Below, piece after piece: positions 4,701-29,651 of a stretch of 40,000 nt of DNA. Source of the stretch: Domibacillus iocasae. Lineage in GTDB: Bacteria; Bacillota; Bacilli; Bacillales; Domibacillaceae. The notes beneath the pieces are model-generated. The model was not told the DNA's origin and did no database searches. It saw only the letters and a list, made by a program, of their open reading frames with translations. A program made the position numbers and the translations under genes. The stretch covers positions 353,751-393,750 of the forward strand of contig NZ_MAMP01000012.1 in the NCBI RefSeq assembly GCF_001750285.1, given 5' to 3'. Position 1 is the first letter of the stretch, and each line of letters starts with the position of its first letter.

Positions 4701-4710
4701 ATTTTCTTGA

Positions 4711-12454: not shown

Positions 12455-13095
12455 TTACTTCTTCGGCTTATGATCTTTGAGATACTTTTCGACAGAAGCA
12501 TAAACAAAGGCTTTCATTCCATCCTTCATTTCCCACAAGTCTTTCAAATCCTGCGGCTTCCATTCTCTTTCGTGCAATAAAAAATGAGCGTAAACCGCAT
12601 CACGGTCTCCGCTCTCAATTAGTTTTTTGCTTCTGAAACAAGATCCTCAAATGTGTCCATATATCCGTTAATACGTTGCGCCGCTTTCATAAATTCTGCG
12701 TATTCCCCGCCGACAGACAGCATTTTCTTCAAGACTTCCACCGGATCTTGTGCGCCGAATGATTTCAGCAAGTCCTTGTCACGGAAGTTCGGATAAACAG
12801 TGGATTCAATGCCCATACGAGCGATCCAACGAGGGCGGTCAAATTCTTCCCCAACTTTTTTCGATCCTTCATAAACTGGTGTGTAACAATCCGCTTCTAT
12901 TTCTTCAATGCGTTCTGTTGTGATCGGCTTCATAACGAATGGAATAACTTTTCCTTCTGCATCAACATAACGTCTTGATACAACAACGTTTTCCTCTGTG
13001 ACTGGCTTCTCTTTGCCGGCCAAGAAAAAACTCATATCCCGTGTGTTCGATACTACCGCTGCTTTTTCTACTGCTTCTGTTTTTGGTGTTGTCAT
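12455..13095 (-). CDS. Predicted -1 frameshift fusion product of the tail assembly chaperone (XkdN-like body plus a 55-aa extension)
   Basis: The -1 frame downstream of the slippery site is open to the stop at 12455-12457 (LIESGDRDAVYAHFLLHEREWKPQDLKDLWEMKDGMKAFVYASVEKYLKDHKPKK). It has no start codon with an RBS of its own. The position between the chaperone and tape measure genes matches the conserved G/GT arrangement. Confidence 0.5.
12619..13095 (-). CDS. Tail assembly chaperone (XkdN-like)
   Basis: 158 aa, acidic C-terminus, positioned between the tube and tape measure genes. It resembles the Phage_XkdN family. Confidence 0.75.
   Translation of the reverse strand: MTTPKTEAVEKAAVVSNTRDMSFFLAGKEKPVTEENVVVSRRYVDAEGKVIPFVMKPITTERIEEIEADCYTPVYEGSKKVGEEFDRPRWIARMGIESTVYPNFRDKDLLKSFGAQDPVEVLKKMLSVGGEYAEFMKAAQRINGYMDTFEDLVSEAKN
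12622..12628 (-). other. Slippery heptamer A_AAA_AAC (programmed -1 ribosomal frameshift site)
   Basis: The last codons of the chaperone read GCA AAA AAC TAA. A_AAA_AAC fits X_XXY_YYZ in the zero frame, directly before the stop. Confidence 0.5.
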
Positions 13096-13167
13096 TTTGT
13101 GTTTCCTCCAGTTAATTGAATGATTTTTTTAAATAAAGGCTCTGTTATCGTTTGTTGTTGATTTTTA

Positions 13168-13200
13168 ACCAAAAGAAAAACCACTCATAAAGAGAGGTTT
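13168..13200 (-). terminator. Intrinsic terminator after the hydrolase cargo gene
   Basis: Hairpin AAACCACTC/GAGAGGTTT (13178-13200, one mismatch), followed on the minus strand by TTTTTCTTTT. Confidence 0.45.
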
Positions 13201-13245
13201 CTTGAACTAACGATTCTCGTTAGCTGAATAATTGAATTAGATTAA

Positions 13246-13839
13246 TTAATGTTTCAGAAAAAAGTTTACCATCTCGTTAAATGTTTTATCTGCTGATTCT
13301 CTATTATGCTTAGAGGAGTACGGGTCAGTAAATCCATGTTGTCCTCTACATTTATTTATCTTGACATTCTTTTTATCTAAAGTTGAAATTAACTGGTCAA
13401 TATTAAATGATTTTTCTTCTTGCGGAAAGAACAGCAGTGCAGGACACTGAGGTGATATTTCTACATAATCCCTAATGCGTGAACCATAGTATCCAACGAT
13501 TCCATCAACACGTTTTTCCTCACTACACAACCAAGCAACCGTTGCTCCTACACTAAACCCGACAACAAACACCTTTTGATATTCATTTTTAATATCTGAT
13601 ATCAAATCTCTAATTTTATGCAAAGCATTAATAAAACCTATATTCCCCATAAAATTACGATAAGCAATTTCCTCTTGAGAATAATCAAAAGGTGCTTTTT
13701 GTTCTAATAAATTAGGGCAAATGACATCAAAATCATATGCCGATAATAATTGACAAATATCCTTCATATGCTGGTTAATTCCATAGATTTCATGAATTAC
13801 AATGATTGCAGTATCGGAGTTTTTCTGTTTATTAATCAT
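13246..13839 (-). CDS. Dienelactone hydrolase-family alpha/beta hydrolase (cargo gene)
   Basis: 197 aa. AIIVIHEIYGINQHMKDICQLLSAYDFDVICPNL is the DLH-type N-terminus. VVGFSVGATVAW is a nucleophile elbow (GxSxG). A C-terminal GQHGF contains a His. A GGGGGAGGTG RBS is present. The gene is AT-rich compared with the flanking tail genes. Confidence 0.7.
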   Translation of the reverse strand: MINKQKNSDTAIIVIHEIYGINQHMKDICQLLSAYDFDVICPNLLEQKAPFDYSQEEIAYRNFMGNIGFINALHKIRDLISDIKNEYQKVFVVGFSVGATVAWLCSEEKRVDGIVGYYGSRIRDYVEISPQCPALLFFPQEEKSFNIDQLISTLDKKNVKINKCRGQHGFTDPYSSKHNRESADKTFNEMVNFFLKH

Positions 13840-14007
13840 TTTTCACCTCCCCCGATTATCTACTCTCATTATACAATTAATACTAAACCCTATCTTTGCT
13901 TCTTTCGTTAAACTGCCCATAAGTTAAGCAAGAAAATCAACAATGACGTTTAACAGAGCCTAAATAAAAAGAGAAAAGGCTGCTAAAAGCCACCCCTTCT
14001 TTCCGGA

Positions 14008-14454
14008 TTAAAATCCTGCTGCTAATTCTTCAGGCAGATCCGCATCTTCGAATGTGAACGGCATTTCTTGTTCAAGAACCGCGCCTTCCGCATTCAATTC
14101 AGCAATTTTCGTGCTGTCAAAGTTTACATCGTAAATTGTGACACGTTCAGTGCCACGTTTAGATCCTTTGTCATCCAATACTTCCTGGAATGTGAAATAA
14201 GGATCTGCTCCTGTTTTGATGTAGTTAATCATCAATTTAACAAATCTCGATGTGACTTTGTAAATAACCAAATTCCCAGTACCGCTTGCGCCGATGGTTT
14301 TGTGGCCATCCATACGGCGACCAAGTACAGCTACTGTCGTTTTGTTTTTCTCAATGGTCGCTTCAAAGCTCTTTACATAAGCCATTTCTTCGCCATCCAA
14401 AAAGAGGCGTCCTTCTTTACCGCTGATCGTATTACCCGAGCGGAATGCTGTCAT
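14008..14454 (-). CDS. Tail tube protein (XkdM-like)
   Basis: 148 aa directly after the sheath gene. The pattern SGKEGRLFLDGEEMAYVKSFEATIEKNKTTV...GTGNLVIYKVTSRF is typical of XkdM-type tube proteins. Confidence 0.85.
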   Translation of the reverse strand: MTAFRSGNTISGKEGRLFLDGEEMAYVKSFEATIEKNKTTVAVLGRRMDGHKTIGASGTGNLVIYKVTSRFVKLMINYIKTGADPYFTFQEVLDDKGSKRGTERVTIYDVNFDSTKIAELNAEGAVLEQEMPFTFEDADLPEELAAGF

Positions 14455-14477: not shown

Positions 14478-15842
14478 TTAGCGTACTGTTACGCCGAAAT
14501 AGAATTTCTCTGCGGCGTCCACCGGCTGAGCGCCAATGTTGATGAAAAAGCCATCTGCATCTGTATTCAATGTAATCTGAATGTCCGTTGACGAATCAAA
14601 ATTCTGCAAAGCGCCGCCTTCTTGCAAAGTATTCATGTACAAAGTAGCGGCTGTGTGGATAATCTGCATCCCATCGCCATTTGCCGGAATATCCGAACCT
14701 GCATCTTTTTTCGCCTTGATCAGTGCCTTGACTTCACGGATCAAATCGTTTTGAATGCCATCCAGGATGCGGATGATCTTGTTTTTCTGGAACCGCTTGT
14801 CTTTTGTTGCACTTAATGTGACAAGTGAGTTAATGTCTTTTTCGACTGATACCGTTCTGTCAGCTGGATCGTATGTCAACATGAAATCACCGTTTTTCAG
14901 ACCGATGATTGTTTCGTCGTTATCGAAGCGAGGAGATACATCGACAGCCCCTTCGTATTCAACGAATGTGAGTGATTGATACATCGTTGCGCCTGCGCTT
15001 GCACCCGCGACCCATGCCACTGTTTGAGCAGGAGTTAAAGTTTCGCCAGTAGCCAAAACAGCGCCATTGGTAACGTTTGTGACTCCTTCATAATCACTTG
15101 CATAGTTAGATAACACGGCACGTACTTTCCGGCCATGTTCTTCCCGAAGGCGTCTGATGAAGGAAACGAACGTTGCTTTCAGCTCATCATTTGCTGTCAC
15201 CGGTAATCCGATTGTGTCAAACTGTGCATTTTCGGCAGCCGTTAAGAAATCCGTGTATTCAAGGTTTGTAACAGTGCCATCAGTGCCGCCGGTTAATGTG
15301 ACACCTGCAGTAGCAACTAAATCGGCCGTACCTGCGAAAATAGCCCATTCATTCGCTTTTAACTCAGCGGCTGTTGTGACTGTCTGCTTATCCACCAATT
15401 GCGTCCCTGCAAACGTAGAAACATCAAATTTCGTTGAATCTAATACATTAACTTGCACAACGACTTTGATTGTATTGCCGATGACCCCACCATGCAACGC
15501 TGTCGCTGTCACGGCTGTTGTGCCCGTGCCTGCCACTGCTAATTGACCAGTTGCCTTCGTTCCCTCATTCAAGCGGTAGACAAGGACAGTCTGGCTTTTC
15601 TTTTTCGCTTCCCGAATGAGAAGGACAGACGCATGGTCAAGATCCACCCCAAGCTTTTTCTGAAAATCGCCTTCATCGGTGATTTCAATAAACGATTTTG
15701 CCTGCCCCCATGATAAAGAGACAGGAAGGGCAACTCGTCCGCTGTTTCCTGCTGCTAAACGGTTTTGTGCCGCTGATTTAAACAGAAAATACATACCAGC
15801 CCGTGCTTTTTCAACGCCTTCTGTAAATGTTCCGCTGTTCAT
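14478..15842 (-). CDS. Contractile tail sheath protein (XkdK-like)
   Basis: 454 aa. The N-terminus GTFTEGVEKARAGMYFLF..., the size and the synteny with the tube gene support the call. Confidence 0.9.
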   Translation of the reverse strand: MNSGTFTEGVEKARAGMYFLFKSAAQNRLAAGNSGRVALPVSLSWGQAKSFIEITDEGDFQKKLGVDLDHASVLLIREAKKKSQTVLVYRLNEGTKATGQLAVAGTGTTAVTATALHGGVIGNTIKVVVQVNVLDSTKFDVSTFAGTQLVDKQTVTTAAELKANEWAIFAGTADLVATAGVTLTGGTDGTVTNLEYTDFLTAAENAQFDTIGLPVTANDELKATFVSFIRRLREEHGRKVRAVLSNYASDYEGVTNVTNGAVLATGETLTPAQTVAWVAGASAGATMYQSLTFVEYEGAVDVSPRFDNDETIIGLKNGDFMLTYDPADRTVSVEKDINSLVTLSATKDKRFQKNKIIRILDGIQNDLIREVKALIKAKKDAGSDIPANGDGMQIIHTAATLYMNTLQEGGALQNFDSSTDIQITLNTDADGFFINIGAQPVDAAEKFYFGVTVR

Positions 15843-18086: not shown

Positions 18087-19007
18087 TTAGGCTAATCCTT
18101 TGATAAGGACCGCCGCGTCTTTTTCCTCAATGACCGGATCGAAATCCAAATGCACGACGTAGAAACGCTTGTCCTGCATAATGGCATCTTTGCCTTCAGT
18201 CGTTTTACGAATCTTTACATCATAAGAGTTCACGACGATTAGGTTCTTTGGATTCACCAACATAATCTGATCTGCTGGCATTCTCGGAACCGCAACAGAC
18301 GGAATGCTTGCTGGTGCATTCAGAATGGATTCAGACAAGCCGCCGCCGTTTTGAATGCTTTGGTTAAGCAAATAACGCTCCCACTTTTGTTTCATGGAAG
18401 GAGCCATCAACCAGCGCAATGTACCGTTATTATATTTATCTGGCATTTGAGACAGTGCATCATAAAAGACATTAAGTGAAATAGCACCGGCGTCTTTTGC
18501 GGCACGGTCCTCCACATGAGAGTCTGCCCCTAACTGTTTCAACCATCCGTTATTGATTTTCAAGAAATCATAATCTACATCGGTATTTAGCGTCGCTTCA
18601 TCACCATTTAAGTAAAGGTCTTCAAGATCAACGCCTAGCTGCTGCGTCATAAGGCTAGTCACTGTATCTTCAAAGCTCTGTCCCTCGATGTTTTCACGAA
18701 GAGACTCTTCTGTGATTTCCCAAGGAAGACGGACAGCTGTAGTTGCATACTCTACCTTGCTGAATTTTACTTCCTGGCGGTTTCCGTCATCGGTATTTTC
18801 CGTCTTTTTACGAAGAATACGTGAATCGATGCCGATTTTGTCAATTTCACCTGTCTTTGCTGTCCGCATCTCTGTGCGGATAAGTCCGCCAAGCACCGTT
18901 GCTTCAAATGTCTGCTGAACAAATTTTTTCGACTGCTCCGGATTCAGTAATCCGGATGTAACTGTGCCCGTTGTAATCGTATTTTTCATAATTGTTTGGT
19001 TATCCAT
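18087..19007 (-). CDS. Major capsid protein (XkdG/YqbE-like)
   Basis: 306 aa directly after the scaffold/protease gene. A strong RBS is present, and size and synteny fit. Confidence 0.8.
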   Translation of the reverse strand: MDNQTIMKNTITTGTVTSGLLNPEQSKKFVQQTFEATVLGGLIRTEMRTAKTGEIDKIGIDSRILRKKTENTDDGNRQEVKFSKVEYATTAVRLPWEITEESLRENIEGQSFEDTVTSLMTQQLGVDLEDLYLNGDEATLNTDVDYDFLKINNGWLKQLGADSHVEDRAAKDAGAISLNVFYDALSQMPDKYNNGTLRWLMAPSMKQKWERYLLNQSIQNGGGLSESILNAPASIPSVAVPRMPADQIMLVNPKNLIVVNSYDVKIRKTTEGKDAIMQDKRFYVVHLDFDPVIEEKDAAVLIKGLA

Positions 19008-19022
19008 TAAATGTTCCTCCTT

Positions 19023-20204
19023 TTATAGAACGCCGTTAAGATAATGTTTTTGAACCGACTCTTCTTTTGGATCTTCCTGCGCCTGTTTTGTAATACTGCG
19101 TGTTTTTTCAATAGCGTCTAAGCGGCTGGTGATTGGCTCCAGGCTTTTTGTTAATGCTTCGGTTACCTGCTTAGCCACCTCTTCTTCACCTGATTGATCA
19201 ACAGCTGTTCCTTCTTCTTTTTCAAGATCAGCAAGCTTTTTACTGATTGGAGACAGTGCATCATTAATCATTTTTTGAATGTCTTCTGCTTTCATTTCGT
19301 CTTCCTCCTCTTCCACTTCTGCTTTCAGCTCATTGAGTGCATCAAAAGCGGCATTAATTTTGTTCATGCGGGCAGCGGAAATCTTTTTGCCGGCTTTCTG
19401 GATTGTTGCTGGCTTTGATTCCATAGCTTTTGCAATATCACCGGTAGTCTGAATCTCTTGAACAATTTCAAAAAACTCCTGTGTAGCTTCAATCAAGCGC
19501 TGGAAATCAGTAGCCTCCGGTGTACGGTTATCCCATAACGCACTATAATAAGCGCTGTCCAATCCGTCCCAAGCCGCCCAAAGGTTACGGCGTTGCTGAT
19601 TTTGCTCGTAATTATCACGAACTTCACCTTTTTGAATAGCGGTACCGCCCGTAAAGAAGTTTTTGAGCAAATTAAAAAGCCCCGCTTCCTGGTTATTTGA
19701 AGGAGCGACAGGCTCTGCAGCATTCTTTTCAATTGTTTCAGCGGTACCGGCCATAGAGTAGCCAGTGATTTCGCCTTTTTGAATCTCTTCCCATATTTCA
19801 TCAGATGCTTTTGTGACCATGATCCAGGAGCCCTTTGTAATTTCCTGCTCTCCAAGTGTAAAGTCTGCAGGTGCGATATACGATTCTACCACTTCACCCA
19901 CGCCACCTTCGAAATCATGCTGCTTGTCGATGTTTCGGGCATCCTTCATAAAGCCATGAGCGGCTTTTTCGATTTCCTCAGCAGTCATAAAATCTCCGTG
20001 AGCATCTTCCATATTGGGCTCGTAAACAAGGCCGTAAACGAGCTGCTGGGCGGCTTCCTCTTTATTGATAAAGACCTTTACTTCTTTTTGAAATGTTGGT
20101 TCCGATCGATGGGCGGACTTTGTGAAGAAAAACTGCTTTTGATTAGCGGCTTTGTCCACGTATGAAACATGTGTAATTTGTGCATTAACTAATTGTCGTG
20201 TCAT
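19023..20204 (-). CDS. XkdF-like prohead protease/scaffold protein
   Basis: ITHVSYVDKAANQKQFFFTKS and VYEPNMEDAHGDFMTAEEIEKAAHGFMK are XkdF-domain motifs, and the C-terminus is a coiled-coil scaffold. ATG 20204 follows AAGGAGGTG by 9 nt. The track GTG at 20216 lies inside the RBS. Confidence 0.8.
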   Translation of the reverse strand: MTRQLVNAQITHVSYVDKAANQKQFFFTKSAHRSEPTFQKEVKVFINKEEAAQQLVYGLVYEPNMEDAHGDFMTAEEIEKAAHGFMKDARNIDKQHDFEGGVGEVVESYIAPADFTLGEQEITKGSWIMVTKASDEIWEEIQKGEITGYSMAGTAETIEKNAAEPVAPSNNQEAGLFNLLKNFFTGGTAIQKGEVRDNYEQNQQRRNLWAAWDGLDSAYYSALWDNRTPEATDFQRLIEATQEFFEIVQEIQTTGDIAKAMESKPATIQKAGKKISAARMNKINAAFDALNELKAEVEEEEDEMKAEDIQKMINDALSPISKKLADLEKEEGTAVDQSGEEEVAKQVTEALTKSLEPITSRLDAIEKTRSITKQAQEDPKEESVQKHYLNGVL

Positions 20205-20311
20205 TTTAATGTTCACCTCCTTTCACTACTAAGTATATTCTTAGAAGATCCTTCTGAATTACCACCTAAACACTTCTTCATTAAATAAGATAAATTTAGT
20301 TTTACGCATAC

Positions 20312-20336
20312 AAAAAAAGCCGGTTTTTTTCCGGCC
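20312..20336 (-). terminator. Strong intrinsic terminator after the diguanylate cyclase gene
   Basis: On the minus strand: GGCCGG-AAAAAAA-CCGGCT followed by TTTTTTT. Confidence 0.8.
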
Positions 20337-20379
20337 TTTCTGTATGTATAGTTCCGTTAACACTACTAATATGAAATTC

Positions 20380-21933
20380 CTATTGATCACTTGCGATAAT
20401 TGTTTTGTTTCTTCCTTCTTGTTTTGCCCTGTACAATGCTTGGTCAGTCATATTTAATAACTCTTCAAAATGAATTGTCATCGTTGACGTGTTTCCAATT
20501 CCAATTGAGAGGGTAACCGGCTTACCTGTAGGACTATTCGTTGTTTCCAATGATTTTCGAATTTTTTCCGCTACCATTTGGGCAGTTTCCAAGCCCGTGT
20601 CAGGAAGAATAATCAAAAATTCTTCGCCGCCTATACGGAAACACAAATCAATCTCTCTGGTTTCTGTCTTAACCATGTCGGCAACATATTTTAGTACTTC
20701 ATCTCCTAGTATGTGTCCGTATTGATCATTTATTTTCTTAAAATGGTCAATATCAAATAAAATGATTGAGTAGATATCTAAATCTTTAATAGTCTTTTCT
20801 AAGTAACGACGATTAAAATAACCTGTTAATGGATCAATATTTGATTCATTCTCAGCATAGTTGGCTCTTTTCTCATAAAAATCAAAAGCTATTAATACAG
20901 CCCGCTTTAATTCCTTTAATTCAAAATACCAATCAGGGATATGCGGTTTAGTTATCACCTTATTTTCTGTAATTTGTTGTGCGTAAGCGGCTAAGTCTCT
21001 TATAGGCTTCACAAATTTGCGTAATAAGATATAAGTTATTATATATACCAGCGTAATAAATGGAAGAGTACTTACACTTACTTGTTTTGTCAATTCAATA
21101 GTTGGTTTCAATACAGCTTCTTTAGGTGTTTGAGATACGATTCCCCAGTGACCTACTGATGAGTTGGAAGAGGCATAGCCTGCTAACATTGTTATTCCTT
21201 TTGAATTAACAATCTCTTGACTTCCATCCTTCCCCTGTAAAACTTTTTTAATAACCTCATTATCTTTTACGTTCTCTCTAATTCTACTAGAATCGGGATG
21301 ATAAATAAGATTTCCTTTAGAGTCAACTACATATACATATGAACCGCTTTCATGCTGTGGATGTTCGCCAAGTATATTGGAAAGACTGTTATTCTCGTCT
21401 AAATTGATTGATCCTCCAAGAAATCCTGTATAATTACCATTGGCATCATAAACCGGAAAAGAAATGAGCATTATGAGATGACCATTAAGGCCCACATAAG
21501 GTTCAGATATTAAAGGCACTTTTTTTCTTAACGCTTCCCTTGCGCCAATTGTATTCGTCTTTCGCCCCTTCAAATCCGTATGCGGTGCTGCTGAAACAAC
21601 CTGGCCTGTTTTATCTACAAACCAAGTTGCGTTAAAAAAAGAAGTGGCTGCTAACATGGTATTTAATTTATGTTGTATAGTTTCAGGATCTTTCGTTAAG
21701 AATTCATCTTCTTGTGATTCTATACGGAGATTTTTTACCATGTCTTTAAAAAGGGAATCCGTTGTATCAGCGAGCTTTTGAGCATAAAATTGATTATCTA
21801 CTAAATAGTTGTTCTCCAGGTTACTTTTACTTACTAAAATACTAGAAGCCGAACTCCCAATGAAAGTGCCTAAAACTGCAAAAGTCAACAACGTTAATGA
21901 CAGAATATTTATGTTAAGTTTAATAGATTTCAT
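20380..21933 (-). CDS. Membrane-bound sensor diguanylate cyclase (TM - double-Cache-like ectodomain - TM - GGDEF)
   Basis: 517 aa. An N-terminal TM (LSLTLLTFAVLGTFIG) is followed by about 250 aa with a Cache-like pattern, then a second TM (LPFITLVYIITYILL). The C-terminus reads DPLTGYFNRRYL...FDIDHFKKINDQYGH..GDEVLK...REIDLCFRIGGEEFLIIL...ALYRAKQEGRN. The GGEEF A-site is intact and RxxD lies 5 aa upstream. The gene is AT-rich. Confidence 0.85.
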   Translation of the reverse strand: MKSIKLNINILSLTLLTFAVLGTFIGSSASSILVSKSNLENNYLVDNQFYAQKLADTTDSLFKDMVKNLRIESQEDEFLTKDPETIQHKLNTMLAATSFFNATWFVDKTGQVVSAAPHTDLKGRKTNTIGAREALRKKVPLISEPYVGLNGHLIMLISFPVYDANGNYTGFLGGSINLDENNSLSNILGEHPQHESGSYVYVVDSKGNLIYHPDSSRIRENVKDNEVIKKVLQGKDGSQEIVNSKGITMLAGYASSNSSVGHWGIVSQTPKEAVLKPTIELTKQVSVSTLPFITLVYIITYILLRKFVKPIRDLAAYAQQITENKVITKPHIPDWYFELKELKRAVLIAFDFYEKRANYAENESNIDPLTGYFNRRYLEKTIKDLDIYSIILFDIDHFKKINDQYGHILGDEVLKYVADMVKTETREIDLCFRIGGEEFLIILPDTGLETAQMVAEKIRKSLETTNSPTGKPVTLSIGIGNTSTMTIHFEELLNMTDQALYRAKQEGRNKTIIASDQ

Positions 21934-21942
21934 AATAAACTT

Positions 21943-21972
21943 AGTATATATAATTAAATTGTTTCACTGCAA
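21943..21972 (-). promoter_or_regulatory. Candidate promoter of the cyclase gene, implying a near-leaderless mRNA
   Basis: On the minus strand: TTGCAG (21972-21967), 18 nt, TATACT (21948-21943). Only 9 nt separate the -10 from the ATG, and no Shine-Dalgarno is visible. Confidence 0.3.
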
Positions 21973-22018
21973 TTGCATTTTGGTTTTATCAGGTACTTTT
22001 TTCTTTCTAAACTTTAAT

Positions 22019-22924
22019 TTATTTTAATTTTTCCAGTACCTTCTTCCTTAGCTCCTCTTTCTCTTCCTTGCTCAGCCCCATGATGTCTTTATTCACCACA
22101 GGCGAAAGCACACAATGGCAATTTACCCGCTCGCCTGCAGGTAAAGAAGTGTCACGGGGATGATCGGCTGCATGGCCGTTCACATCAAATGTTTCATCAA
22201 CGGCAACTTCTTCACCGTCCAGATCCACATGCGCTTCACGTGGATTATTTTTCTTGCTGCCTGAATGCCGCCAACGCTTCTTTTCGACTGCTGGGCTTTG
22301 CCGGTATGATTCCGCCTGCGCAACAGAAGAGGCAGTCAGTATTTCGGTAATAGCGGTTGTACGTGCTCGCTTTCGGTCAAACTGCGGCAGATCCTTTATA
22401 GCCAGCTCGGCGTCCTGGATGGAGCCGCCTTCTTTAATGACCTTTTTTAATTCTCTCTCCAATGCATCATGAGAGTTGAGCTTCATCAGCTTGCCTAAAT
22501 CAGCAGACCATTCTTCAATCCAGGTAACGGATCGGTTAGACAGGACTTCAAAAGGTACATCCTTATCAATAGAATCCATTAGTTCAGCGGCTAGTCCTGC
22601 CACTGTCAGTTGCAGAAACGATGATGTTTCCTCTTGCATCTCTTCCGCAAATTCATCCGCAGCAAAAAGGTTGCTGGTGATGTAAATAAGGAGCGCTTCG
22701 AGTGTAATATCCTTGCTGACGAATGATTTTACGCCATCAACAAAATGCTTCCGCTGTTTGCGCAGAAGCTTGGCCACTTTCTTTTCATAATCTTCAACAA
22801 AGCCTGGTATCTGATCCAATCCAGGGAAATCCGGTACTAGATCCGTCAGCTTTTCCTCGTCTTCTTCATCCACTTTGGCAATATAGTCATTCAAGCTTTT
22901 TAAAAGCTTTTCTGCCTTGCTCAT
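22019..22924 (-). CDS. Minor head morphogenesis protein (SPP1 gp7 / Mu F family)
   Basis: The C-terminal sequence RWRHSGSKKNNPREAHVDLDGEEV...PGERVNCHCVLSP is the Phage_Mu_F signature. The gene follows the portal gene. Confidence 0.85.
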   Translation of the reverse strand: MSKAEKLLKSLNDYIAKVDEEDEEKLTDLVPDFPGLDQIPGFVEDYEKKVAKLLRKQRKHFVDGVKSFVSKDITLEALLIYITSNLFAADEFAEEMQEETSSFLQLTVAGLAAELMDSIDKDVPFEVLSNRSVTWIEEWSADLGKLMKLNSHDALERELKKVIKEGGSIQDAELAIKDLPQFDRKRARTTAITEILTASSVAQAESYRQSPAVEKKRWRHSGSKKNNPREAHVDLDGEEVAVDETFDVNGHAADHPRDTSLPAGERVNCHCVLSPVVNKDIMGLSKEEKEELRKKVLEKLK

Positions 22925-24459
22925 GACTGCATCGCCTCGAGCACATCACGCATATCTTTCATAATGTTCAGCAGATCCGTGTTCGGTTCCGCTTGGGATT
23001 TTAATAAAGAGATCAGCGGGTTTGCCTGCTGACCTTGCTGCAAGTTATTTAATACGATTTGGAAAGGTACGTTATATTCATCAGGGAGCGCTTCAAGGTC
23101 TTTACCTAGCAATTGTCCTAGCAGGTCCCTCAAATCGTTAGGAGCGACTCCTCCTGCGCTTGCAAGTGGCGCTATCGCTTGCGCTGTTTCAATCGGATCA
23201 CTAAAGTTTGGTCCGTTTAATGATGCTTCCACATTGTAAATCTCTAAATCAGAAAGAAAAAGCGTGTTTAGCTTGCCAGTAATGGCTTGCCGCTCTGGTT
23301 CAAAGACCTGCTCTTCTGTAATTTTACGAGCAGTATCTGCAGTTGCCTTGTTATAATCCTTCGATTCACCTGTGTAAATCGGCGGCAGACGAAACGATGA
23401 GCGAAGTTTATCGCGGCTTTTCTCGTCATATTCCAGAAAAAGAGCATCTTGCTGCAGAATTTCAGCCAAGGATTTGATTTGTACTTTAACCGGTGCCGTC
23501 TTTTCCTCCCCAGTATCCTCTTCACTGGTAATGCCCTCAGCTTCTAGGATTAGAAACTTGTGCGCGTTCTCAACACCTTCAATACCGTTCATGTATTCCT
23601 GCAAATTGGTATAAGCTTCCTCAGTCAACATCCCATTCTCAACAGTAATAGCAGCCGGAACATGCCTGCCCTGCTTGAAATACATATAGTTCAGCTCTTC
23701 CGCTTTCCGGGCACCATATTGATGGATGATATGCCCTACCCACCTTGGAATTCCATAGGTTCCGGAACCCAGCTTGAAATGAATGATTTCTGTTGCCAAG
23801 AGATTCTCAGGTGTACTTTCATCAAATTTTCCTGTCGTAAGGTTCATCGGCCGCGGATCTCCGTACTCCTTAAAGTACACTTTTTTGCCGTTGATCATTT
23901 GCACATATTTTCGGAACGTACGCCACCGTTTGATTGTCTTAAGCTGGCCGTTTTCCGTAATGGTATAATCCACTTCTTCCGGTACGGTCCGCTTGCATAC
24001 ACGAATATATTGACCATCCACATATTCAATTCCAGCCGGGCGGTTCAACGAATCACGCAAAGCCTCAATATATCCATTCCCCATTTTTTCACGGTCTTCA
24101 AGAGCATAGCCCAGAATCGTTTCCGCTTCCTCGTCATAATTCAGATACCGAATAAATTCTTCAAGGCGGGTCCACTCTTCATCGGCTTTAGTTTTCAAAT
24201 CATCCTTTGTGTCTTTTGAATTGTAGTCAAAACGGTATTTCGGTACCAGACCAAAGCCTAGAATATTCACGCGGTACGCTTCCACACATTGCTGCAGGAT
24301 GGTAGAATACTCCCCAATCAACTTAAGCTCTTTTAGGTTGTATGGCGGCTCAATAATATCGCCATCGTATGACGCTTTAAATGGGTCATCATAAATTTGT
24401 TTCGTAGTTGAAGCAGTTTGCGATTTAATAACCGTTGCTTTCATTTTGCGCTCTCCCAT
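22921..24459 (-). CDS. Portal protein (PBSX/XkdE family)
   Basis: 512 aa directly after the large terminase gene. A GAGGAGG RBS is present. Confidence 0.85.
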   Translation of the reverse strand: MGERKMKATVIKSQTASTTKQIYDDPFKASYDGDIIEPPYNLKELKLIGEYSTILQQCVEAYRVNILGFGLVPKYRFDYNSKDTKDDLKTKADEEWTRLEEFIRYLNYDEEAETILGYALEDREKMGNGYIEALRDSLNRPAGIEYVDGQYIRVCKRTVPEEVDYTITENGQLKTIKRWRTFRKYVQMINGKKVYFKEYGDPRPMNLTTGKFDESTPENLLATEIIHFKLGSGTYGIPRWVGHIIHQYGARKAEELNYMYFKQGRHVPAAITVENGMLTEEAYTNLQEYMNGIEGVENAHKFLILEAEGITSEEDTGEEKTAPVKVQIKSLAEILQQDALFLEYDEKSRDKLRSSFRLPPIYTGESKDYNKATADTARKITEEQVFEPERQAITGKLNTLFLSDLEIYNVEASLNGPNFSDPIETAQAIAPLASAGGVAPNDLRDLLGQLLGKDLEALPDEYNVPFQIVLNNLQQGQQANPLISLLKSQAEPNTDLLNIMKDMRDVLEAMQS

Positions 24460-24462
24460 GAG

Positions 24463-25791
24463 TTACCTCCTCTCTCTAGTCGGTCTTTTTCGATTCGGCC
24501 GTTCCCTTTGTCTTTTCTCTTTCAAGTCCGCCACTTCGTAATTGTCCAGGCCATACCAGATAGCCGATAACGTATGCGGATCAATCTTGAATTCATCCTC
24601 AATGATGTTTCCATTCTTATCAACTGCATACGTTAAATCCTTCAATTCATAAATAGTATTGGTGCATTGACTAGAACAAATGATTTTTCTAAACCGCTTC
24701 ACCTTTTTCGTATATTGAAGCCGGGAGCCTTTATACTTCTTTGCGCCCATCATGTTGAAACCCAGCTGCCTAAAATATTTGATCGTTTTCGGTTCGGCGC
24801 TATCCGCTTTAATCAACTCTTTCGATTCAGCAAATTCCTTTATCGCCTCAGCTGTTTGATCATCGGTCATTCCATTCTTATAAAATTCCCAATAGATGTA
24901 GAGAATCTTCTTTTCATGATCGACAGCTAGTCGAAGCAAAGCATTGTAAGAATTGACGAAACCGAAATCCATGCCAGCCCTCATAAGCGGCTTATTTATG
25001 TTCTCGATCGCAGCCATCACTTCTTCATGCGGCTTTATCGCGAATTGCAGCAGCACCTTCACGCCGTTCACACCAAATTGACCTTTCCTGGCAATGCGGT
25101 AAAGGTCTGGATCATATTCTTTCAGTTCATCCAATTGAGCGATATAACTTTCTGGCAAGAATAAATTGTCTTCAGCTGTTGAGTGGTGGTAGTACGTATC
25201 ATTTGTGACTAATGTTCTCTTTTCGTATAATTCAGCATCGTCCAGTATGAGACGCTTATTCATATCATCACGAAAAAAATGTTTAAAGGACCAGTTATCT
25301 TCCCCAACCGGGTTAGTGGAAAGAATCATGTGCAGCTTCAAAGTTGGATGCCTGAGCCGGCCAAGTAATTCTTTAAACCCTGCATACTTTACTTCTGAAC
25401 ACTCTTCAATCCAAACAATAGAGATATTGTTAATCGATTTTAATTTTGCAGGCCGGTCCATACCTTTAAAGATGATCTTGCTTCCATTAGGAAAGCGGAT
25501 CTGCATAGGTGAAGTCATGCATTTAACATGATCATCAAGCCCTAAGTCAATCACCAGCTCCTCCAGCAAAGAAAAGGTGGAATCGCGGTGTGTATCGTAT
25601 ACTTCACGTACAACGAGAGCGGTACGCTTTTCTTCCAACATCTTTAAAATAATTTTTAAAGCTACGTGATAGCTCTTACTGCTGCCATATCCGCCGACAA
25701 GAAACTGAAATTTCGTTGACCACTCGAATAGGAAATCTTCAAAATGAGGATTAACTTCTTTTTCAACCATTTCAATCGCTAATTCACTCAT
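24463..25791 (-). CDS. terL: Terminase large subunit (PBSX XtmB / Terminase_3 type)
   Basis: 442 aa. Walker A-like VGGYGSSKS, and WIEECSEV as the Walker B/coupling motif. A nuclease-domain C-terminus is present. Confidence 0.9.
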
Positions 25792-26684
25792 GATGGATCA
25801 CCTTTTCGCTTAATCATGATTTGAATTGGACGATCTGATTTATCATCTGATAGCTTTTTGATCTCCACTTTTGATTTTTCAATCTCAATTTTTAGTTTCT
25901 CCTGCTGCAGCTGCTTTTGCTCCTTCTCAGAAAGAAGATCAAAGTATTTCGTCAGCATATCCAGCGCCTTCATTCTGTCAGCCAGCTTCACCACAACACC
26001 GTCGCGGCCCTGCCGGATTTCGCTGACAATCGTTCCGTCAATTTCATCGCTGTTTTTGAAGAACATTTCATTGTAGGATTCAACGCGCGGTACCATTTCT
26101 TTCACTTCGCCGTCTTCGTTAAGAAGCGTATCGTATTTGCCTGTATGAATGTCTTTTCTCTGGAACGTAACATAATCAGTAATGTCTGCAAAAGCGATTT
26201 TAACGTAATAATCGATCACGTCTCTGGCGTTAATAAAAAGCTCTTCCTGCAGTCCTGCTTTTAGCTCACGAATATACTCCGCAACCTTAGCATTTCTTAG
26301 CAAGCGACTCCCTTCAACATGAGCCGATTCTTTTGCATATCCTGCTTTAATTGCAGCCATCGTTGCATTGAAGCTTTTTAGGTAGTGCATGCAGAAAAGC
26401 TCTTGTTTATCAGTCAATTCAGCGATTTCCGCTTCTTCAGCATCAGGCTCTTTTCTATTTGGAGCATGCGCTTTTTTGGTTCCCTTTTCATTTGGAGTAC
26501 TCCGTATTTTTTTATGGAGTACTCCATTCAATTTATCGTTCCATTTATCTTTGGACTTCCATCCGCTGATCGTTTTTTCTGGAACGCCTAATTGTTCAGC
26601 AAGAGCACGATTTGTTATTTCTCTATTATGCTGCTTCCATATTTCGAAAGCTTCATCCCGTTTCGGATCTCTCTGTCTGGCCAC
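25788..26684 (-). CDS. terS: Terminase small subunit (N-terminal HTH plus Terminase_2 domain)
   Basis: [21 protein letters not shown] is the [49 protein letters not shown] is the Terminase_2 motif. The gene overlaps terL by 4 nt. Confidence 0.85.
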
Positions 26685-26720
26685 GTCACATCACCACCAC
26701 CTCCGTGATTGTTTTTGAGC

Positions 26721-26749
26721 AAAGAAAAAAGCACCTCATAATTTGAGGT
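26721..26749 (-). terminator. Intrinsic terminator between a small cargo ORF and terS
   Basis: On the minus strand: ACCTCA-AATTA-TGAGGT followed by GCTTTTTTCTTTGC. Confidence 0.55.
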
Positions 26750-26767
26750 ACTCATTACCAAGTTTCT

Positions 26768-26974
26768 TTACCAAGGGGATCTATTGCTTATTTTAGCGGG
26801 TTTTGTAAAATGAATTGATGTAACATTCCCCATGTTCACCGCCTGATGGTCTTCGCTGGTATACCATTCTGAAGTAGTTAGCATTTTCAGAATCTCTCCC
26901 TCGTTTTCACCTTCAATTTCAAGCCTTTTATAATTTTCTTTATCAAACGTAAAAAGCACACTGTATTTAGCCAT
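26768..26974 (-). CDS. Hypothetical small protein (68 aa)
   Basis: ATG 26974 is preceded by AAAGGAGGTGGGGG. The longer track version (to 27139, TTG start) has no RBS. Confidence 0.5.
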   Translation of the reverse strand: MAKYSVLFTFDKENYKRLEIEGENEGEILKMLTTSEWYTSEDHQAVNMGNVTSIHFTKPAKISNRSPW

Positions 26975-27074
26975 TCCCCCACCTCCTTTTGCCTTACATT
27001 TCGACAAAAGGAGATAATTTCCTGCGTTCATCATATTCGTTTTAGTGATATGATTACCCAGGCGAGGTGACAAA

Positions 27075-27245
27075 ATGGAAACTGAACAGAAAATTGATTT
27101 AAATGTGACATACAACATTTTAGAATACCCGGACATCAAAAGCGGCCGTTGCGATAATTGCGATAACGCTCAATTTAAGAGCTCGATTAAAAATGCTATT
27201 TTTTTACGCGAGTGCCGTAAGTGTGGAATGAAGAAAATAATTTAA
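27075..27245 (+). CDS. Small zinc-ribbon protein (56 aa, CxxC...CxxC)
   Basis: METEQKIDLNVTYNILEYPDIKSGRCDNCDNAQFKSSIKNAIFLRECRKCGMKKII. A GAGGTG RBS is present, and a terminator follows directly. The ORF is below the track cutoff. Confidence 0.5.
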   Translation: METEQKIDLNVTYNILEYPDIKSGRCDNCDNAQFKSSIKNAIFLRECRKCGMKKII

Positions 27246-27275
27246 CCCCGCCAACTGGCAGGGGTTTTGTTTTTT
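27246..27275 (+). terminator. Intrinsic terminator
   Basis: CCCCGCC-AACT-GGCAGGGG followed by TTTTGTTTTTT. Confidence 0.6.
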
Positions 27276-27309
27276 AGCAAAGAAAAAAGCATCACAACGG
27301 GTGCCTTGC

Positions 27310-27550: not shown

Positions 27551-27925
27551 GTGAAAATTTTGGAAGAAACAACTTTTTATAATAACCGAGGCAAACCCGT
27601 CGCTTATACTCAAGATGAAACTTATATTTATCTGTTCTCTGGAAAACCAGTTGGATATTTTGATCAGGATTCCATCTTTTCTTTTTCAGGCAAACATCTT
27701 GGTCGTTATAATAATGGTTGGGTTAGAGATAATAGTGGAAAATGTGTGTTTTTTACCGTTAATGCATCTGGCTCAGGTCCTGCTAAACCCGCTAAATCAG
27801 CCAAACCGGCAAAAGGCGCTAAATCAGCTAAGCCTGCTAAAGGAGCTAAGCAAGCACGCCCTGCAAGACCAGCTAATAGTCTGAGCTGGTCTAGTTTATC
27901 TTTCGAATGGTTCTTCAATCAGTAA
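27551..27925 (+). CDS. 4-fold beta-flower-like protein with an Ala/Lys/Pro-repeat C-terminal tail
   Basis: There are four internal repeats of (S/R)GK(P/H/C)(V/L)(A/G/F)(Y/R/F): RGKPVAY, SGKPVGY, SGKHLGR, SGKCVFF. These are followed by PAKPAKSAKPAKGAKSAKPAKGAKQARPARPA (DNA 27778-27872). The start is uncertain: GTG 27551, or TTG 27560, which has better RBS spacing. Confidence 0.55.
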   Translation: MKILEETTFYNNRGKPVAYTQDETYIYLFSGKPVGYFDQDSIFSFSGKHLGRYNNGWVRDNSGKCVFFTVNASGSGPAKPAKSAKPAKGAKSAKPAKGAKQARPARPANSLSWSSLSFEWFFNQ

Positions 27926-29075: not shown

Positions 29076-29570
29076 TTATGAAACTAAAAAAAGGCTGCCG
29101 TTTTTTCTAACTTCAATTTTCTGCTCTGCTCGTTCTAAGTACGTCTGGACAGATGACTTAGTAAGCCCTAATAATTCTGCCGTATACTCGAATGTGATTC
29201 CTTCCGCTTTAATCAATGTAAATACATCTTTTTCCCTCGTTGTTAAATCCCCAAGCACATCATCCAGCAACCATTTCTCATCAGCTGTCAGCTTTCTTTC
29301 TTCGCTGGCCACAATTCGATTCGGAACAACAGCTTCAATCAGTTTCGGATCCAACGTATAAGCCCCTGTCCGATCAGCCCCGCGTCTTGCATCCGGATTC
29401 CGGCCGGACACCATCCACTGAATAGCAAATTCCACTTCGCTGATCATGCTGTTAATGAGCGTCTTATCCTGGAGGTCCTGTTCCAACAATTCCGGTTTGG
29501 CTTCGATGGCTGCCTTCACTTCCTTCAGCGCTCGTAATGATTGTTTGTATTCGTAAATGAGTGTCCGCAT
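29076..29570 (-). CDS. Sigma-70-like late gene activator (Xpf-like)
   Basis: The C-terminal sequence LTTREKDVFTLIKAEGITFEYTAELLGLTKSSVQTYLERAEQKI is a sigma region-4 HTH. Size and position upstream of the packaging genes match PBSX xpf. ATG 29570 is preferred over the track TTG at 29600, which lies in the terminator T-run. Confidence 0.7.
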   Translation of the reverse strand: MRTLIYEYKQSLRALKEVKAAIEAKPELLEQDLQDKTLINSMISEVEFAIQWMVSGRNPDARRGADRTGAYTLDPKLIEAVVPNRIVASEERKLTADEKWLLDDVLGDLTTREKDVFTLIKAEGITFEYTAELLGLTKSSVQTYLERAEQKIEVRKNGSLFLVS

Positions 29571-29596
29571 GTTTATTCCCCATTTCTTTTTATTAA

Positions 29597-29651
29597 GCAA
29601 ATAAAAAAGGACACCAAACAGCGCACGATTTTTCGTGTCTGTTCAGTGTCC
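29597..29651 (-). terminator. Strong intrinsic terminator immediately upstream of the sigma-like gene
   Basis: A 43-nt imperfect hairpin spans 29609-29651 (GGACAC..AACAG..CACG / CGTG..CTGTT..GTGTCC). It is followed on the minus strand by TTTTTTATTT. Confidence 0.7.

What the first reader, a model, noticed from the sequence alone, without database searches (positions are those of the whole stretch)
20217..22018. Ligand-sensing diguanylate cyclase (dCache-TM-GGDEF) inserted as a self-contained cargo unit inside the head-morphogenesis operon
A 517-aa membrane sensor sits between the SPP1-gp7-like minor head gene and the XkdF-like scaffold/protease gene. It has an intact GGEEF active site and a canonical RxxD (REID) inhibitory site five residues upstream. 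The conserved PBSX/skin gene order has only structural genes at this position. The insert is visibly AT-richer than both flanks. It ends in a strong terminator (20312-20336). It is preceded by TTGCAG-18-TATACT only 9 nt from an ATG that has no Shine-Dalgarno, which suggests a near-leaderless, independently transcribed mRNA. This is a c-di-GMP synthase with an extracellular sensing domain carried in the middle of a late operon. It could reprogram motility or biofilm formation in the lysogen, or couple an external cue to prophage behaviour. I do not know of a described role for such a gene in this phage family.
Basis: partly seen in the sequence, partly recalled or inferred. Interest (0 to 1): 0.8.

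Follow-up and report, generated by a model that had tools for sequence, protein, structure and literature searches.

The report
Prophage-carried sensor diguanylate cyclase cargo gene
A Domibacillus prophage carries, between two head-assembly genes, a complete host-derived membrane sensor enzyme that makes the signal molecule c-di-GMP; it sits in a slot where related phages commonly hold assorted cargo genes, so it is a clear but fairly ordinary example of a phage "moron".

Summary
Window 20380-21933 (minus strand) encodes a 517-aa TM-dCache_1-TM-GGDEF protein. It has intact GGEEF and REID motifs, about 34% GC against about 45% in the flanks, and a strong terminator. It lies between the MuF-like and XkdF-like head genes of a skin/PBSX-type prophage of Domibacillus iocasae.

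One premise is wrong. This position does not hold only structural genes. In 50 of 75 related (pro)phage loci the MuF-XkdF junction holds 250 bp or more of AT-rich extra DNA, with at least 17 unrelated cargo families. The closest relative, a D. tundrae prophage, carries a STAS/RsbR-like gene there. No surveyed relative has a cyclase in this slot.

The gene is host-derived. Its nearest homologues are in Domibacillus (82% in D. indicus), and the wider family is chromosomal. The unit shared with D. indicus starts 48 nt upstream of the ATG, taking in the TTGCAG-18-TATACT element, and has no Shine-Dalgarno. In D. indicus and in one further assembly it abuts DNA homologous to this prophage's early region. 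The promoter match is weak (8 of 12), and transcription is untested.

Best reading: a moron that adds a ligand-gated c-di-GMP source to the lysogen. Phage-borne GGDEF genes are already known, so I file this as a new member of a known kind, of moderate interest.

The parts
20226..22052 (-). Variable cargo slot between the MuF-like and XkdF-like genes. This is the region not shared with the D. tundrae sister prophage.
   Evidence: blastn breakpoints against L004 fall at window 22053 and 20225. The D. tundrae slot is 1121 bp and holds a STAS gene instead.
20404..21981 (-). Portable DGC cassette: the unit of DNA homology shared with the D. indicus copy and the L091 copy. It covers the promoter-like element and nearly all of the coding sequence.
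   Evidence: 84% nt identity to L001 9917-11494. 81% nt identity to L091 165-1436, starting at the same window position 21981 but ending at window 20714, because the L091 copy is truncated. The flanks differ in each genome.
21967..21972 (-). -35-like hexamer TTGCAG
   Evidence: Read from the sequence. Identical in the D. indicus and L091 copies. Only 3 of 6 match the consensus, so it was not reported by the scan.
21943..21948 (-). -10-like hexamer TATACT, 18 nt after the -35-like hexamer and 9 nt before the ATG
   Evidence: 5 of 6 match the consensus. No Shine-Dalgarno lies between it and the ATG.
20380..21933 (-). CDS of the 517-aa sensor diguanylate cyclase (TM1, dCache_1, TM2, HAMP-like linker, GGDEF)
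   Evidence: 100% identical to P0001, which NCBI names 'sensor domain-containing diguanylate cyclase [Domibacillus iocasae]'.
21133..21744 (-). dCache_1 extracytoplasmic sensor domain (residues 64-267)
   Evidence: Pfam PF02743, 63.3 bits against a cutoff of 45. The closest solved structure is the PctA ligand-binding domain (E 4.6e-6), but PctA's R126/W128/D173 amino-acid-binding positions are not conserved.
20404..20841 (-). GGDEF catalytic domain (residues 365-510). Includes RxxD (REID, nt 20647-20658) and GGEEF (nt 20617-20631).
   Evidence: Pfam PF00990, E 7.3e-38. Matches solved DGCs 3IGN, PleD and WspR at E 1e-25 to 1e-31. Motif positions.
20303..20350 (-). Intrinsic terminator. The core stem-loop and T-run lie at 20312-20336.
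   Evidence: RNA fold -20.7 kcal/mol, z -6.7. The scan also reports the site on the opposite strand. It is not shared with the D. indicus copy.
22019..22924 (-). Upstream flank: MuF/SPP1-gp7-like head morphogenesis gene
   Evidence: PF04233, E 1e-21. phrog_2468 head morphogenesis, E 1.2e-96.
19023..20204 (-). Downstream flank: XkdF/YqbD-like head maturation protease or scaffold gene, preceded by a strong RBS (GGAGGTGA)
   Evidence: PF14550, E 1.5e-48. phrog_3017, E 5e-152. The ATG at 20204 matches P0121 (393 aa).

Best explanation
The feature is a phage "moron": a self-contained, host-derived cargo cassette (weak promoter, gene, terminator) in a recombination-tolerant slot between the MuF-like and XkdF-like head genes of a skin/PBSX-type temperate myovirus integrated in Domibacillus iocasae.

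Shown here:
- The gene encodes a two-TM, extracytoplasmic dCache_1 sensor fused to a GGDEF domain. The GGEEF active site, the N402/D411 guanine-contact positions and the RxxD feedback site are all intact.
- The slot is variable across the phage family, and the DGC is unique to this prophage among the relatives surveyed.
- The cassette comes from the Domibacillus lineage. It occurs, with the same upstream 48 nt, next to phage early-region DNA in two other assemblies.

Inferred:
- In the lysogen the gene is transcribed from its own promoter as an mRNA with a leader of about 3 nt and no Shine-Dalgarno, insulated from the late genes by its terminator.
- The dimeric membrane protein binds an unknown extracellular small molecule, not an amino acid of the PctA type.
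- It then raises c-di-GMP, limited by I-site product inhibition.
- The host's c-di-GMP receptors turn that into reduced flagellar motility and a more sessile or matrix-producing state. In Bacillus these receptors are the MotI PilZ clutch, ComFB, and YdaK/YkuI.

This would be lysogenic conversion that gives the host a new environmental input.
For: Domain identity and motifs: (the invariant columns include N402, D403, D411, R433 and G435-F439). Topology. Base composition. Terminator.

Polymorphism: the D. tundrae sister prophage (MuF 92% aa; DNA 78-81% on both sides) has a STAS gene in the slot. Of 75 related loci, 50 have 250 bp or more of AT-rich insert, with at least 17 cargo families and no DGC.

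Moron layout recurs: 14 of 41 cargo-bearing loci have a terminator-like hairpin abutting the XkdF RBS, against about 5 expected.

Host origin: the family is chromosomal in Bacillaceae. The output half is 70-72% identical to D. iocasae's own paralogue P0086.

Portability with the promoter: cassette homology begins at the same nucleotide (window 21981) in D. indicus and L091, 3 nt after homology to this prophage's early region ends. No copy has a Shine-Dalgarno, while the neighbouring XkdF gene has GGAGGTGA.

c-di-GMP outputs in Bacillus: PMC12265714.
Against: - The promoter is only an 8/12 consensus match, and such sites are not enriched in the region.
- Conservation of the hexamers across three copies is not statistically distinguishable from the roughly 84% background identity.
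- The gene has the same orientation as the late operon, and the 85-nt upstream spacer is unstructured. It could therefore be expressed mainly by read-through during lytic growth.
- No transcript, enzymatic or phenotypic data exist.
- I did not show that D. iocasae has MotI, ComFB or other receptors.
- One related copy (L091) is a truncated pseudogene, so the cassette is not always kept.
- No c-di-GMP riboswitch or other Rfam element lies in the prophage window.
Confidence: 0.55

Rival explanations
1. Neutral or transient passenger. The cassette was captured by illegitimate recombination in a slot that tolerates insertions. It confers nothing on phage or host and is on the way to decay.
For: The slot accepts many unrelated inserts, most with no recognisable function. 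A related copy is truncated to a pseudogene. The D. indicus copy sits in a decayed phage remnant next to an IS605-family TnpB gene. Only one prophage is known with the DGC in this slot.
Against: The 517-aa reading frame and every catalytic and regulatory motif are intact. The cassette persists at 82% aa identity across species in phage-linked DNA, which implies time under purifying selection.
Confidence: 0.2
2. Late-expressed lytic-cycle factor. The gene is transcribed with the head genes by read-through from the Xpf-type late promoter. The resulting c-di-GMP burst benefits virion production or release, for example by arresting motility, changing the envelope, or excluding superinfecting phage from a dying cell.
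For: Same strand as the late operon. No terminator or secondary structure lies in the 85 nt between the MuF stop and the ATG. An Xpf-like sigma factor gene is present at 29076-29600.
Against: There is no Shine-Dalgarno, unlike every neighbouring late gene checked, so translation from a polycistronic RNA should be poor. A strong terminator follows the gene, which would penalise the 15-plus essential late genes downstream unless it is overridden. A ligand-gated membrane sensor with product inhibition is an odd design for a timed burst. Sister phages do without it.
Confidence: 0.15
3. Superinfection-exclusion or defence cargo. c-di-GMP made by the prophage enzyme masks or removes receptors (flagella, surface glycans) used by competing phages.
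For: Moron slots often hold exclusion or defence genes (PMC11364771). c-di-GMP-dependent surface changes alter phage susceptibility in other species (PMC8669472; VpvC note in PMC10333796). One cargo family in the same slot carries a TM domain (CyanoTRADDas_TM) associated with TRADD-N proteins.
Against: No PADLOC defence model matches beyond weak Cas10-palm fold homology (E 1e-5). No partner effector gene sits in the cassette. The idea is entirely inferential.
Confidence: 0.08
4. Structural or assembly component of the head that is conserved at this position.
For: Only its location between head genes.
Against: Absent from the sister prophage and from all 75 surveyed relatives. It is a membrane signalling protein, and its closest homologues are chromosomal.
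Confidence: 0.01

Closest known systems
Chromosomal dCache_1-GGDEF sensor diguanylate cyclases of Bacillaceae (Domibacillus, Peribacillus, Cytobacillus; e.g. P0002, P0005, P0017)
   Same: Same length and architecture, and 57-82% identity over the full length. All catalytic and I-site residues are conserved.
   Different: Those with about 60% identity that I examined sit among ordinary chromosomal genes. This copy is inside a prophage head operon. Together with its D. indicus sister it lacks a Shine-Dalgarno and carries a -10-like element 9-10 nt from the ATG.
Phage morons as defined for lambdoid phages (HK97/HK022: promoter-gene-terminator units between conserved genes; own knowledge, Juhala/Hendrix 2000; HK97 gp15 example cited in PMC11364771)
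   Same: An extra gene between two genes that are adjacent in relatives, with deviant base composition, its own terminator and a candidate promoter.
   Different: A Firmicute skin/PBSX-type myovirus. Promoter activity and expression in the lysogen are untested. The cargo is a large sensory enzyme rather than a small exclusion protein.
GGDEF genes already recorded on phages and other mobile elements. Phages: YuA, Bacillus phage SP-15 gp150, Bordetella LK3, a Mu-like marine virus. Other elements: ICE SXT/R391 DGCs and plasmid-borne DGCs.
   Same: A c-di-GMP synthase carried by a mobile element, proposed to alter host behaviour.
   Different: The documented phage examples I could inspect are short GGDEF-only proteins. 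[quoted passage not shown] This one has a full transmembrane ligand-sensor module. The review PMC10333796 says few c-di-GMP elements are known on phages.
phrog_5594 (PHROGs v4, function unknown) and the IMG/VR full-length hits L094-L101
   Same: A viral or proviral protein family aligning over residues 46-515 (E 4.9e-76). Eight IMG/VR loci have full-length dCache-GGDEF matches.
   Different: Only 31-34% identical. The two contexts inspected lie at prophage edges: L094 outside the integrase, L096 beyond the lysis genes. They may be host flank. The copy in this window is unambiguously internal to the phage genome.
YqbC-position genes of B. subtilis skin-type elements
   Same: They occupy the same MuF-XkdF/YqbD slot. 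This is the largest cargo cluster in the survey (12 loci, 194-251 aa).
   Different: Unrelated sequence with no Pfam domain.

Membership tests
GGDEF diguanylate cyclase (active DGC) | GGDEF domain profile match above the curated threshold | tested here: met
   PF00990, 130.3 bits against a cutoff of 23.8, covering profile positions 2-161 of 161. PDB DGCs matched at E 6e-31 to 1e-25.
GGDEF diguanylate cyclase (active DGC) | Intact GG(D/E)EF active-site loop and metal/GTP-binding residues (PleD N335/D344 equivalents; DxLT and D-I-D motifs) | tested here: met
   GGEEF at 435-439, DPLTG at 367-371, FDIDHFKKIND at 393-403, GD at 410-411. All are invariant across 30 family members. The mapping to PleD numbering is by motif and from my own knowledge.
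GGDEF diguanylate cyclase (active DGC) | Primary inhibitory site RxxD five residues upstream of GGDEF | tested here: met
   REID at 426-429, followed by LCFRI and then GGEEF.
GGDEF diguanylate cyclase (active DGC) | Synthesis of c-di-GMP from GTP | not testable with these tools
   Needs an enzyme assay or c-di-GMP measurement in vivo.
Hypr-GGDEF (cGAMP-producing variant) | Ser in place of the Asp that reads the guanine base (PleD D344 position) | tested here: not met
   The position is D411, invariant in the family. Canonical c-di-GMP specificity is therefore expected. The rule itself is from my own knowledge.
dCache_1 extracytoplasmic sensor | dCache_1 profile above threshold, bracketed by two TM helices | tested here: met
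   PF02743, 63.3 bits against a cutoff of 45, residues 64-267. Hydrophobic segments at about 8-30 and 285-306.
dCache_1AA amino-acid sensors (PctA type) | Conserved R126/W128/Y144/D173 ligand-contact motif | tested here: not met
   In the alignment to 5LTX, PctA's 'RSRPWY' aligns to 'TNTIGA' and the D of 'GGDLSL' aligns to S in 'GGSINL'. Only the EPY tyrosine is kept. The residue numbering is from my own knowledge.
Phage moron | Present between two genes that are adjacent or differently filled in close relatives | tested here: met
   The D. tundrae sister prophage has a STAS gene there instead. The gap ranges from 2 to 1741 bp across 75 loci.
Phage moron | Base composition distinct from the surrounding phage genes | tested here: met
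   0.33-0.36 against 0.44-0.47. The same trend holds across the slot in relatives: 0.28-0.40 against 0.36-0.47.
Phage moron | Own terminator | tested here: met
   -20.7 kcal/mol hairpin plus T7. A terminator recurs in 14 of 41 cargo-bearing relatives.
Phage moron | Own promoter, active in the lysogen | tested here: inconclusive
   TTGCAG-18-TATACT is an 8/12 match, below the scan threshold. It does co-travel with the CDS in three copies, with the cassette boundary about 9 nt upstream of the -35-like hexamer. Activity cannot be tested here.
Leaderless / near-leaderless mRNA | No Shine-Dalgarno, and a -10 element within about 10 nt of the start codon | tested here: met
   Sequence read. Relatives at about 60% identity have weak GGTG or AAGAG elements instead.
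Leaderless / near-leaderless mRNA | Mapped transcription start at or within a few nt of the AUG | not testable with these tools
   Needs 5'-RACE, dRNA-seq or Rend-seq.
Virion structural/assembly gene of skin/PBSX-type phages | Conserved presence at this position in relatives | tested here: not met
   None of 75 related loci has it.
Known anti-phage defence systems (PADLOC) | Match to a defence-system protein model with partner genes | tested here: not met
   Only weak Cas10 palm-domain homology, E 1e-5. There are no partner genes.

The most novel reading that the evidence does not exclude
Domibacillus temperate phages of this lineage may traffic environmental-sensor genes as portable, promoter-bearing cassettes between several slots of their genomes. 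Two cargo types are seen:
- The dCache-DGC, found in the head slot here and next to an early-region IDEAL gene in the D. indicus copy and in L091.
- RsbR-like STAS genes, found in the head slot of the D. tundrae phage and in the early region here.

If so, lysogeny would plug new extracellular inputs into the host's c-di-GMP and stressosome networks. A phage-borne, ligand-gated second-messenger sensor of this kind has not been functionally described.
Probability: 0.25. Interest if true: 0.6.

Novelty: new member of a known kind. Interest (0 to 1): 0.4.

Why it matters
If the enzyme is active in the lysogen, acquiring this prophage would give the bacterium a new chemical input controlling motility and biofilm formation. 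That would extend lysogenic conversion from toxins and exclusion proteins to sensory second-messenger signalling in Firmicutes.

This is also the cleanest genomic case I could find of a full-length sensor DGC that is unquestionably inside a phage genome rather than at a prophage edge.

More generally, the survey identifies the MuF-XkdF junction of skin/PBSX-type phages as a rich cargo hot spot worth mining. It holds at least 17 families, most of unknown function.

Tried and rejected
- Megablast of the 9-kb head region against deposited phages found nothing. Context had to come from IMG/VR and genome contigs.
- Exact-protein look-ups for the DGC and for P0086 failed because the D. iocasae assembly is not indexed. 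I could not see where the host paralogue lies or define the prophage ends.
- Single-protein scans for MuF relatives found only one sister prophage. An XkdF alignment was needed to reach 80 loci.
- A scan of IMG/VR for the conserved promoter string found nothing.
- The terminator and slot borders are not shared with any other locus, so the assembly history of the cassette ends is unresolved.
- 'Escherichia phage vB_EcoS-683R6 diguanylate cyclase' was rejected as a precedent. The record's region is host chromosome, with dgcM, zntB and dbpA. Many other tblastn hits are unannotated fragments or bacterial WGS records filed as phage.
- Amino-acid ligand specificity is rejected.
- Defence-system membership is rejected.
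- A c-di-GMP riboswitch in the prophage is rejected.
- I considered an ECF-type promoter, because TGAAAC lies just after the -35-like hexamer. I dropped it because no CGT-type -10 follows (sequence read, own knowledge).
- Structure prediction was not run. The HMM and PDB sequence evidence already fixes the architecture.
Full report
**1. What is there**

The window is a prophage of Domibacillus iocasae. The 517-aa protein is 100% identical to a protein NCBI names for that species (P0001). All late genes are on the minus strand, in skin/PBSX order:
- TerS 25788-26684
- TerL 24463-25791
- portal 22921-24459
- MuF-like 22019-22924
- the ORF in question, 20380-21933
- XkdF/YqbD-like 19023-20204
- major capsid 18087-19007
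- YqbF/DUF3199/DUF3599/gp10-like head-tail genes
- sheath 14478-15842 and tube 14008-14454
- XkdN chaperone 12619-13095
- tape measure 8657-12442
- baseplate genes and holin 366-917

Upstream of the late genes lie an Xpf-like sigma factor (29076-29600), a DnaC-like gene, a RepO-like gene, RecT, YqaJ and an HTH protein.

The ORF matches GGDEF (E 7.3e-38) and dCache_1 (E 3.3e-17), both above Pfam's curated cutoffs. Two hydrophobic segments (about residues 8-30 and 285-306) place the dCache domain outside the cell and the GGDEF domain inside. GGEEF is at 435-439 and REID at 426-429. The catalytic domain aligns to solved DGCs (3IGN, PleD, WspR) at E 1e-25 to 1e-31. The motifs DPLTG, FDIDHFKKIND, GD and GGEEF are invariant across 30 family members.

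GC is 0.33-0.36 across 20001-22000, against 0.44-0.47 on either side. The terminator at 20312-20336 extends to a hairpin of -20.7 kcal/mol, z -6.7.

**2. The premise that fails**

I pulled 80 IMG/VR loci with an XkdF-family alignment and located MuF in 75 of them.
- The MuF-to-XkdF distance runs from 2 bp to 1741 bp. It is 250 bp or more in 50 loci and 600 bp or more in 37.
- The extra DNA is AT-rich relative to its flanks: 0.28-0.40 against 0.36-0.47.
- It encodes at least 17 unrelated protein families. Most have no Pfam domain. The rest include DinB_2, DUF6883, an HNH endonuclease, a CyanoTRADDas_TM protein and a gp49/66-like protein.
- A B. subtilis skin-type locus has a 228-aa domain-less gene in the slot, the YqbC position.
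- 14 of 41 cargo-bearing loci have a well-formed terminator-like hairpin directly before the XkdF ribosome-binding site. About 5 would be expected from the background density in the same loci.

So the junction is a general moron hot spot. An insert here is expected, not anomalous.

**3. The insert is polymorphic and unique**

The closest relative is a D. tundrae PAMC 80007 prophage, found in both genome contigs and IMG/VR. It is collinear at 78-81% DNA identity on both sides, with breakpoints at window 22053 and 20225. Its slot holds a 285-aa STAS-domain protein with its own terminator and lower GC than its flanks.

None of the surveyed relatives carries a cyclase in the slot.

**4. Where the gene came from**

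Homologues number in the thousands. The first 60 or so are full-length dCache-GGDEF proteins of Bacillaceae at 48-60% identity. Two that I examined lie among ordinary chromosomal genes (L003; D. tundrae L088, about 180 kb from its prophage).

The host's own paralogue P0086 shares the TM2-linker-GGDEF half at 70-72% identity but has an unrelated sensor half at 29%. The output module is therefore native to the Domibacillus lineage.

The nearest full-length relative, D. indicus P0002 (82%), gave the most informative result.
- DNA homology with the window runs from 48 nt upstream of the ATG to 24 nt before the stop (window 21981-20404; 84%). It includes TTGCAG-18-TATACT and the ATG, with no Shine-Dalgarno. 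The terminator is not included.
- Three nucleotides upstream of that boundary, the D. indicus sequence becomes homologous to this prophage's early region. L001 9722-9913 matches window 31596-31404 at 77%. This covers the 3' part of an IDEAL-domain gene (31478-31771) and the start of the next gene.
- A second copy of the same IDEAL gene lies downstream of the cyclase (L001 12354-12479, 82.5%).
- A further early-region fragment lies upstream (L001 8845-9165 against window 33138-32809). An IS605-family TnpB gene is adjacent.
- A third assembly (L091) keeps the identical IDEAL-to-cyclase junction, but there the cyclase is truncated to a pseudogene.

The cassette is therefore phage-linked in all three genomes but sits at two different places in the phage map.

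**5. Transcription and translation**

As a sigma-A promoter the upstream element is weak: 3/6 plus 5/6 with an 18-nt spacer. The scan did not report it, and the region has no excess of promoter-like sites.

Three points favour a real promoter:
- Both hexamers are identical in three copies, while the spacer and the short leader vary. With so few sequences this is not significant.
- The cassette boundary lies about 9 nt upstream of the -35-like hexamer, so the unit carries just enough DNA for a minimal promoter.
- No copy has a Shine-Dalgarno, whereas XkdF has GGAGGTGA, and relatives at about 60% identity have weak SD-like elements.

With TATACT ending 9 nt before the ATG, a start about 7 nt downstream would leave a leader of about 3 nt.

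Against exclusivity: the 85 nt between the MuF stop and the ATG are unstructured (-1.7 kcal/mol), so late transcripts will enter the gene. The terminator after it must be overridden for the phage to express its remaining late genes. The recurrence of such terminators in relatives suggests this phage family copes with them, by means unknown.

**6. Likely mechanism**

*Shown:* an intact, I-site-bearing GGDEF enzyme with an extracytoplasmic double-Cache sensor. The guanine-reading Asp (D411) is present, so this is not the Ser variant of cGAMP-making Hypr enzymes (rule from my own knowledge). The sensor's best solved relative is the PctA ligand-binding domain, but PctA's Arg/Trp/Asp amino-acid contacts are replaced. 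The ligand is unknown and is probably not an amino acid.

*Inferred:* ligand binding shifts the TM2/HAMP-like linker (residues about 307-364; no Pfam HAMP match) and controls dimerisation of the GGDEF domains. c-di-GMP rises until product binds the REID site. The host receptors then act. In B. subtilis these are MotI (a clutch on MotA), ComFB, and the YdaK/YkuI polysaccharide regulators (PMC12265714). I did not verify that D. iocasae has them. Domibacillus genomes do encode several GGDEF and GGDEF-EAL proteins.

The prophage window has no riboswitch or other Rfam element, so nothing suggests c-di-GMP feeds back on the phage itself.

**7. Comparison with what is known**

c-di-GMP genes on mobile elements are established, including ICE SXT/R391, Tn21 and plasmids. 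[quoted passage not shown]

Annotation-level mentions exist for Bordetella phage LK3 (PMC8471281) and a Mu-like marine virus (PMC7785012). Bacillus phage SP-15 has a 183-aa GGDEF-only gene inside a glycosylation cluster.

tblastn against 50,697 phage records found 141 records, all hit through the GGDEF domain only and none over 80% or more of the protein. Several of them are host DNA or unannotated fragments.

PHROGs does contain a function-unknown family, phrog_5594, that aligns over residues 46-515 (E 4.9e-76). An alignment-based IMG/VR scan found eight full-length hits at 31-34% identity. The two contexts I inspected are at prophage edges: one outside the integrase, one beyond the lysis genes. 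They may be host flank.

The present case is therefore an unusually clean example, but it belongs to a known kind.

**8. Verdict**

Cargo status, polymorphism and enzyme integrity hold. The "only structural genes here" premise does not. Independent or leaderless transcription and any lysogen phenotype remain inference.
- Novelty: a new member of a known kind, namely a sensor DGC as phage moron cargo.
- Interest is about 0.4. It is useful to c-di-GMP and prophage biologists as a testable lysogenic-conversion candidate, and the head-slot cargo survey adds value. It is not very surprising, and it does not open a long-standing question.

Noticed in passing
window 13246-13839 (minus strand), in the low-GC island at about 13000-14000: A second likely moron. 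A 197-aa dienelactone hydrolase family protein (PF01738, E 3.7e-23) sits between the tail tube gene (14008-14454) and the XkdN-like tail chaperone (12619-13095). GC is 0.33-0.34 against about 0.45 in the flanks. It has no PHROG or PADLOC match.
   Followed up: partly
window 33378-34217 (plus strand); L004 6970-7827: Two Domibacillus prophages carry RsbR-like proteins with a C-terminal STAS domain, 35% identical to each other. One is in the early region here. The other is in the MuF-XkdF head slot of the D. tundrae sister phage. A literature search found no description of phage-borne stressosome-type genes. They could tap into sigma-B signalling.
   Followed up: partly
L006-L085 (MuF-XkdF junction, about locus positions 3300-5000): The junction is a cargo hot spot across skin/PBSX-type (pro)phages. 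It holds at least 17 unrelated, mostly unannotated families, including a 12-member family of 194-251 aa with an N-terminal hydrophobic region, a 424-439 aa family, and a 278-290 aa multi-TM family. Terminators often abut the XkdF RBS.
   Followed up: partly
L001 8800-14100 (D. indicus); L091 1-1440: The D. indicus cyclase lies in a roughly 4-kb AT-rich remnant. Copies of a phage IDEAL-domain gene lie on both sides; the upstream copy appears split into two ORFs. An IS605-family TnpB gene is adjacent. In L091 the same junction is kept but the cyclase is truncated at residue 284.
   Followed up: yes
P0086 (D. iocasae chromosome, position unknown): A host paralogue shares the TM2-linker-GGDEF module at 70-72% identity but has an unrelated, shorter sensor region. 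This is an apparent sensor-domain swap within one genome.
   Followed up: partly
L090 (ON470595.1 5902-12438): The record 'Escherichia phage vB_EcoS-683R6, partial genome' contains an E. coli chromosomal segment (dgcM, zntB, dbpA, smrA). Its 'phage diguanylate cyclase' is host DNA. Many other tblastn hits are unannotated fragments or bacterial WGS contigs filed as phage.
   Followed up: partly
L004 1-4462 compared with window 24463-27300: The D. tundrae sister prophage is mosaic. Portal through tail genes are 78-81% identical to the window. Its large terminase, however, is a different 594-aa protein, against the 442-aa Terminase_3 here. A weak AbiGi-like ORF lies upstream in a low-GC stretch.
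   Followed up: no
window 21961-21966 (minus strand): TGAAAC, identical in all three cassette copies, lies immediately after the -35-like hexamer. It resembles the -35 element of Bacillus ECF sigma factors (own knowledge). No CGT-type -10 follows at the usual spacing, so I did not pursue it.
   Followed up: no
window 1155-2039 (minus strand) and 27551-27925 (plus strand): A 294-aa ORF with no Pfam, PHROG or PADLOC match lies in the lowest-GC part of the window (0.29-0.33), next to the holin. A plus-strand 'beta-flower' protein (PF21784, E 1.5e-38) lies between the terminase and the early genes. Both are further candidate cargo.
   Followed up: no
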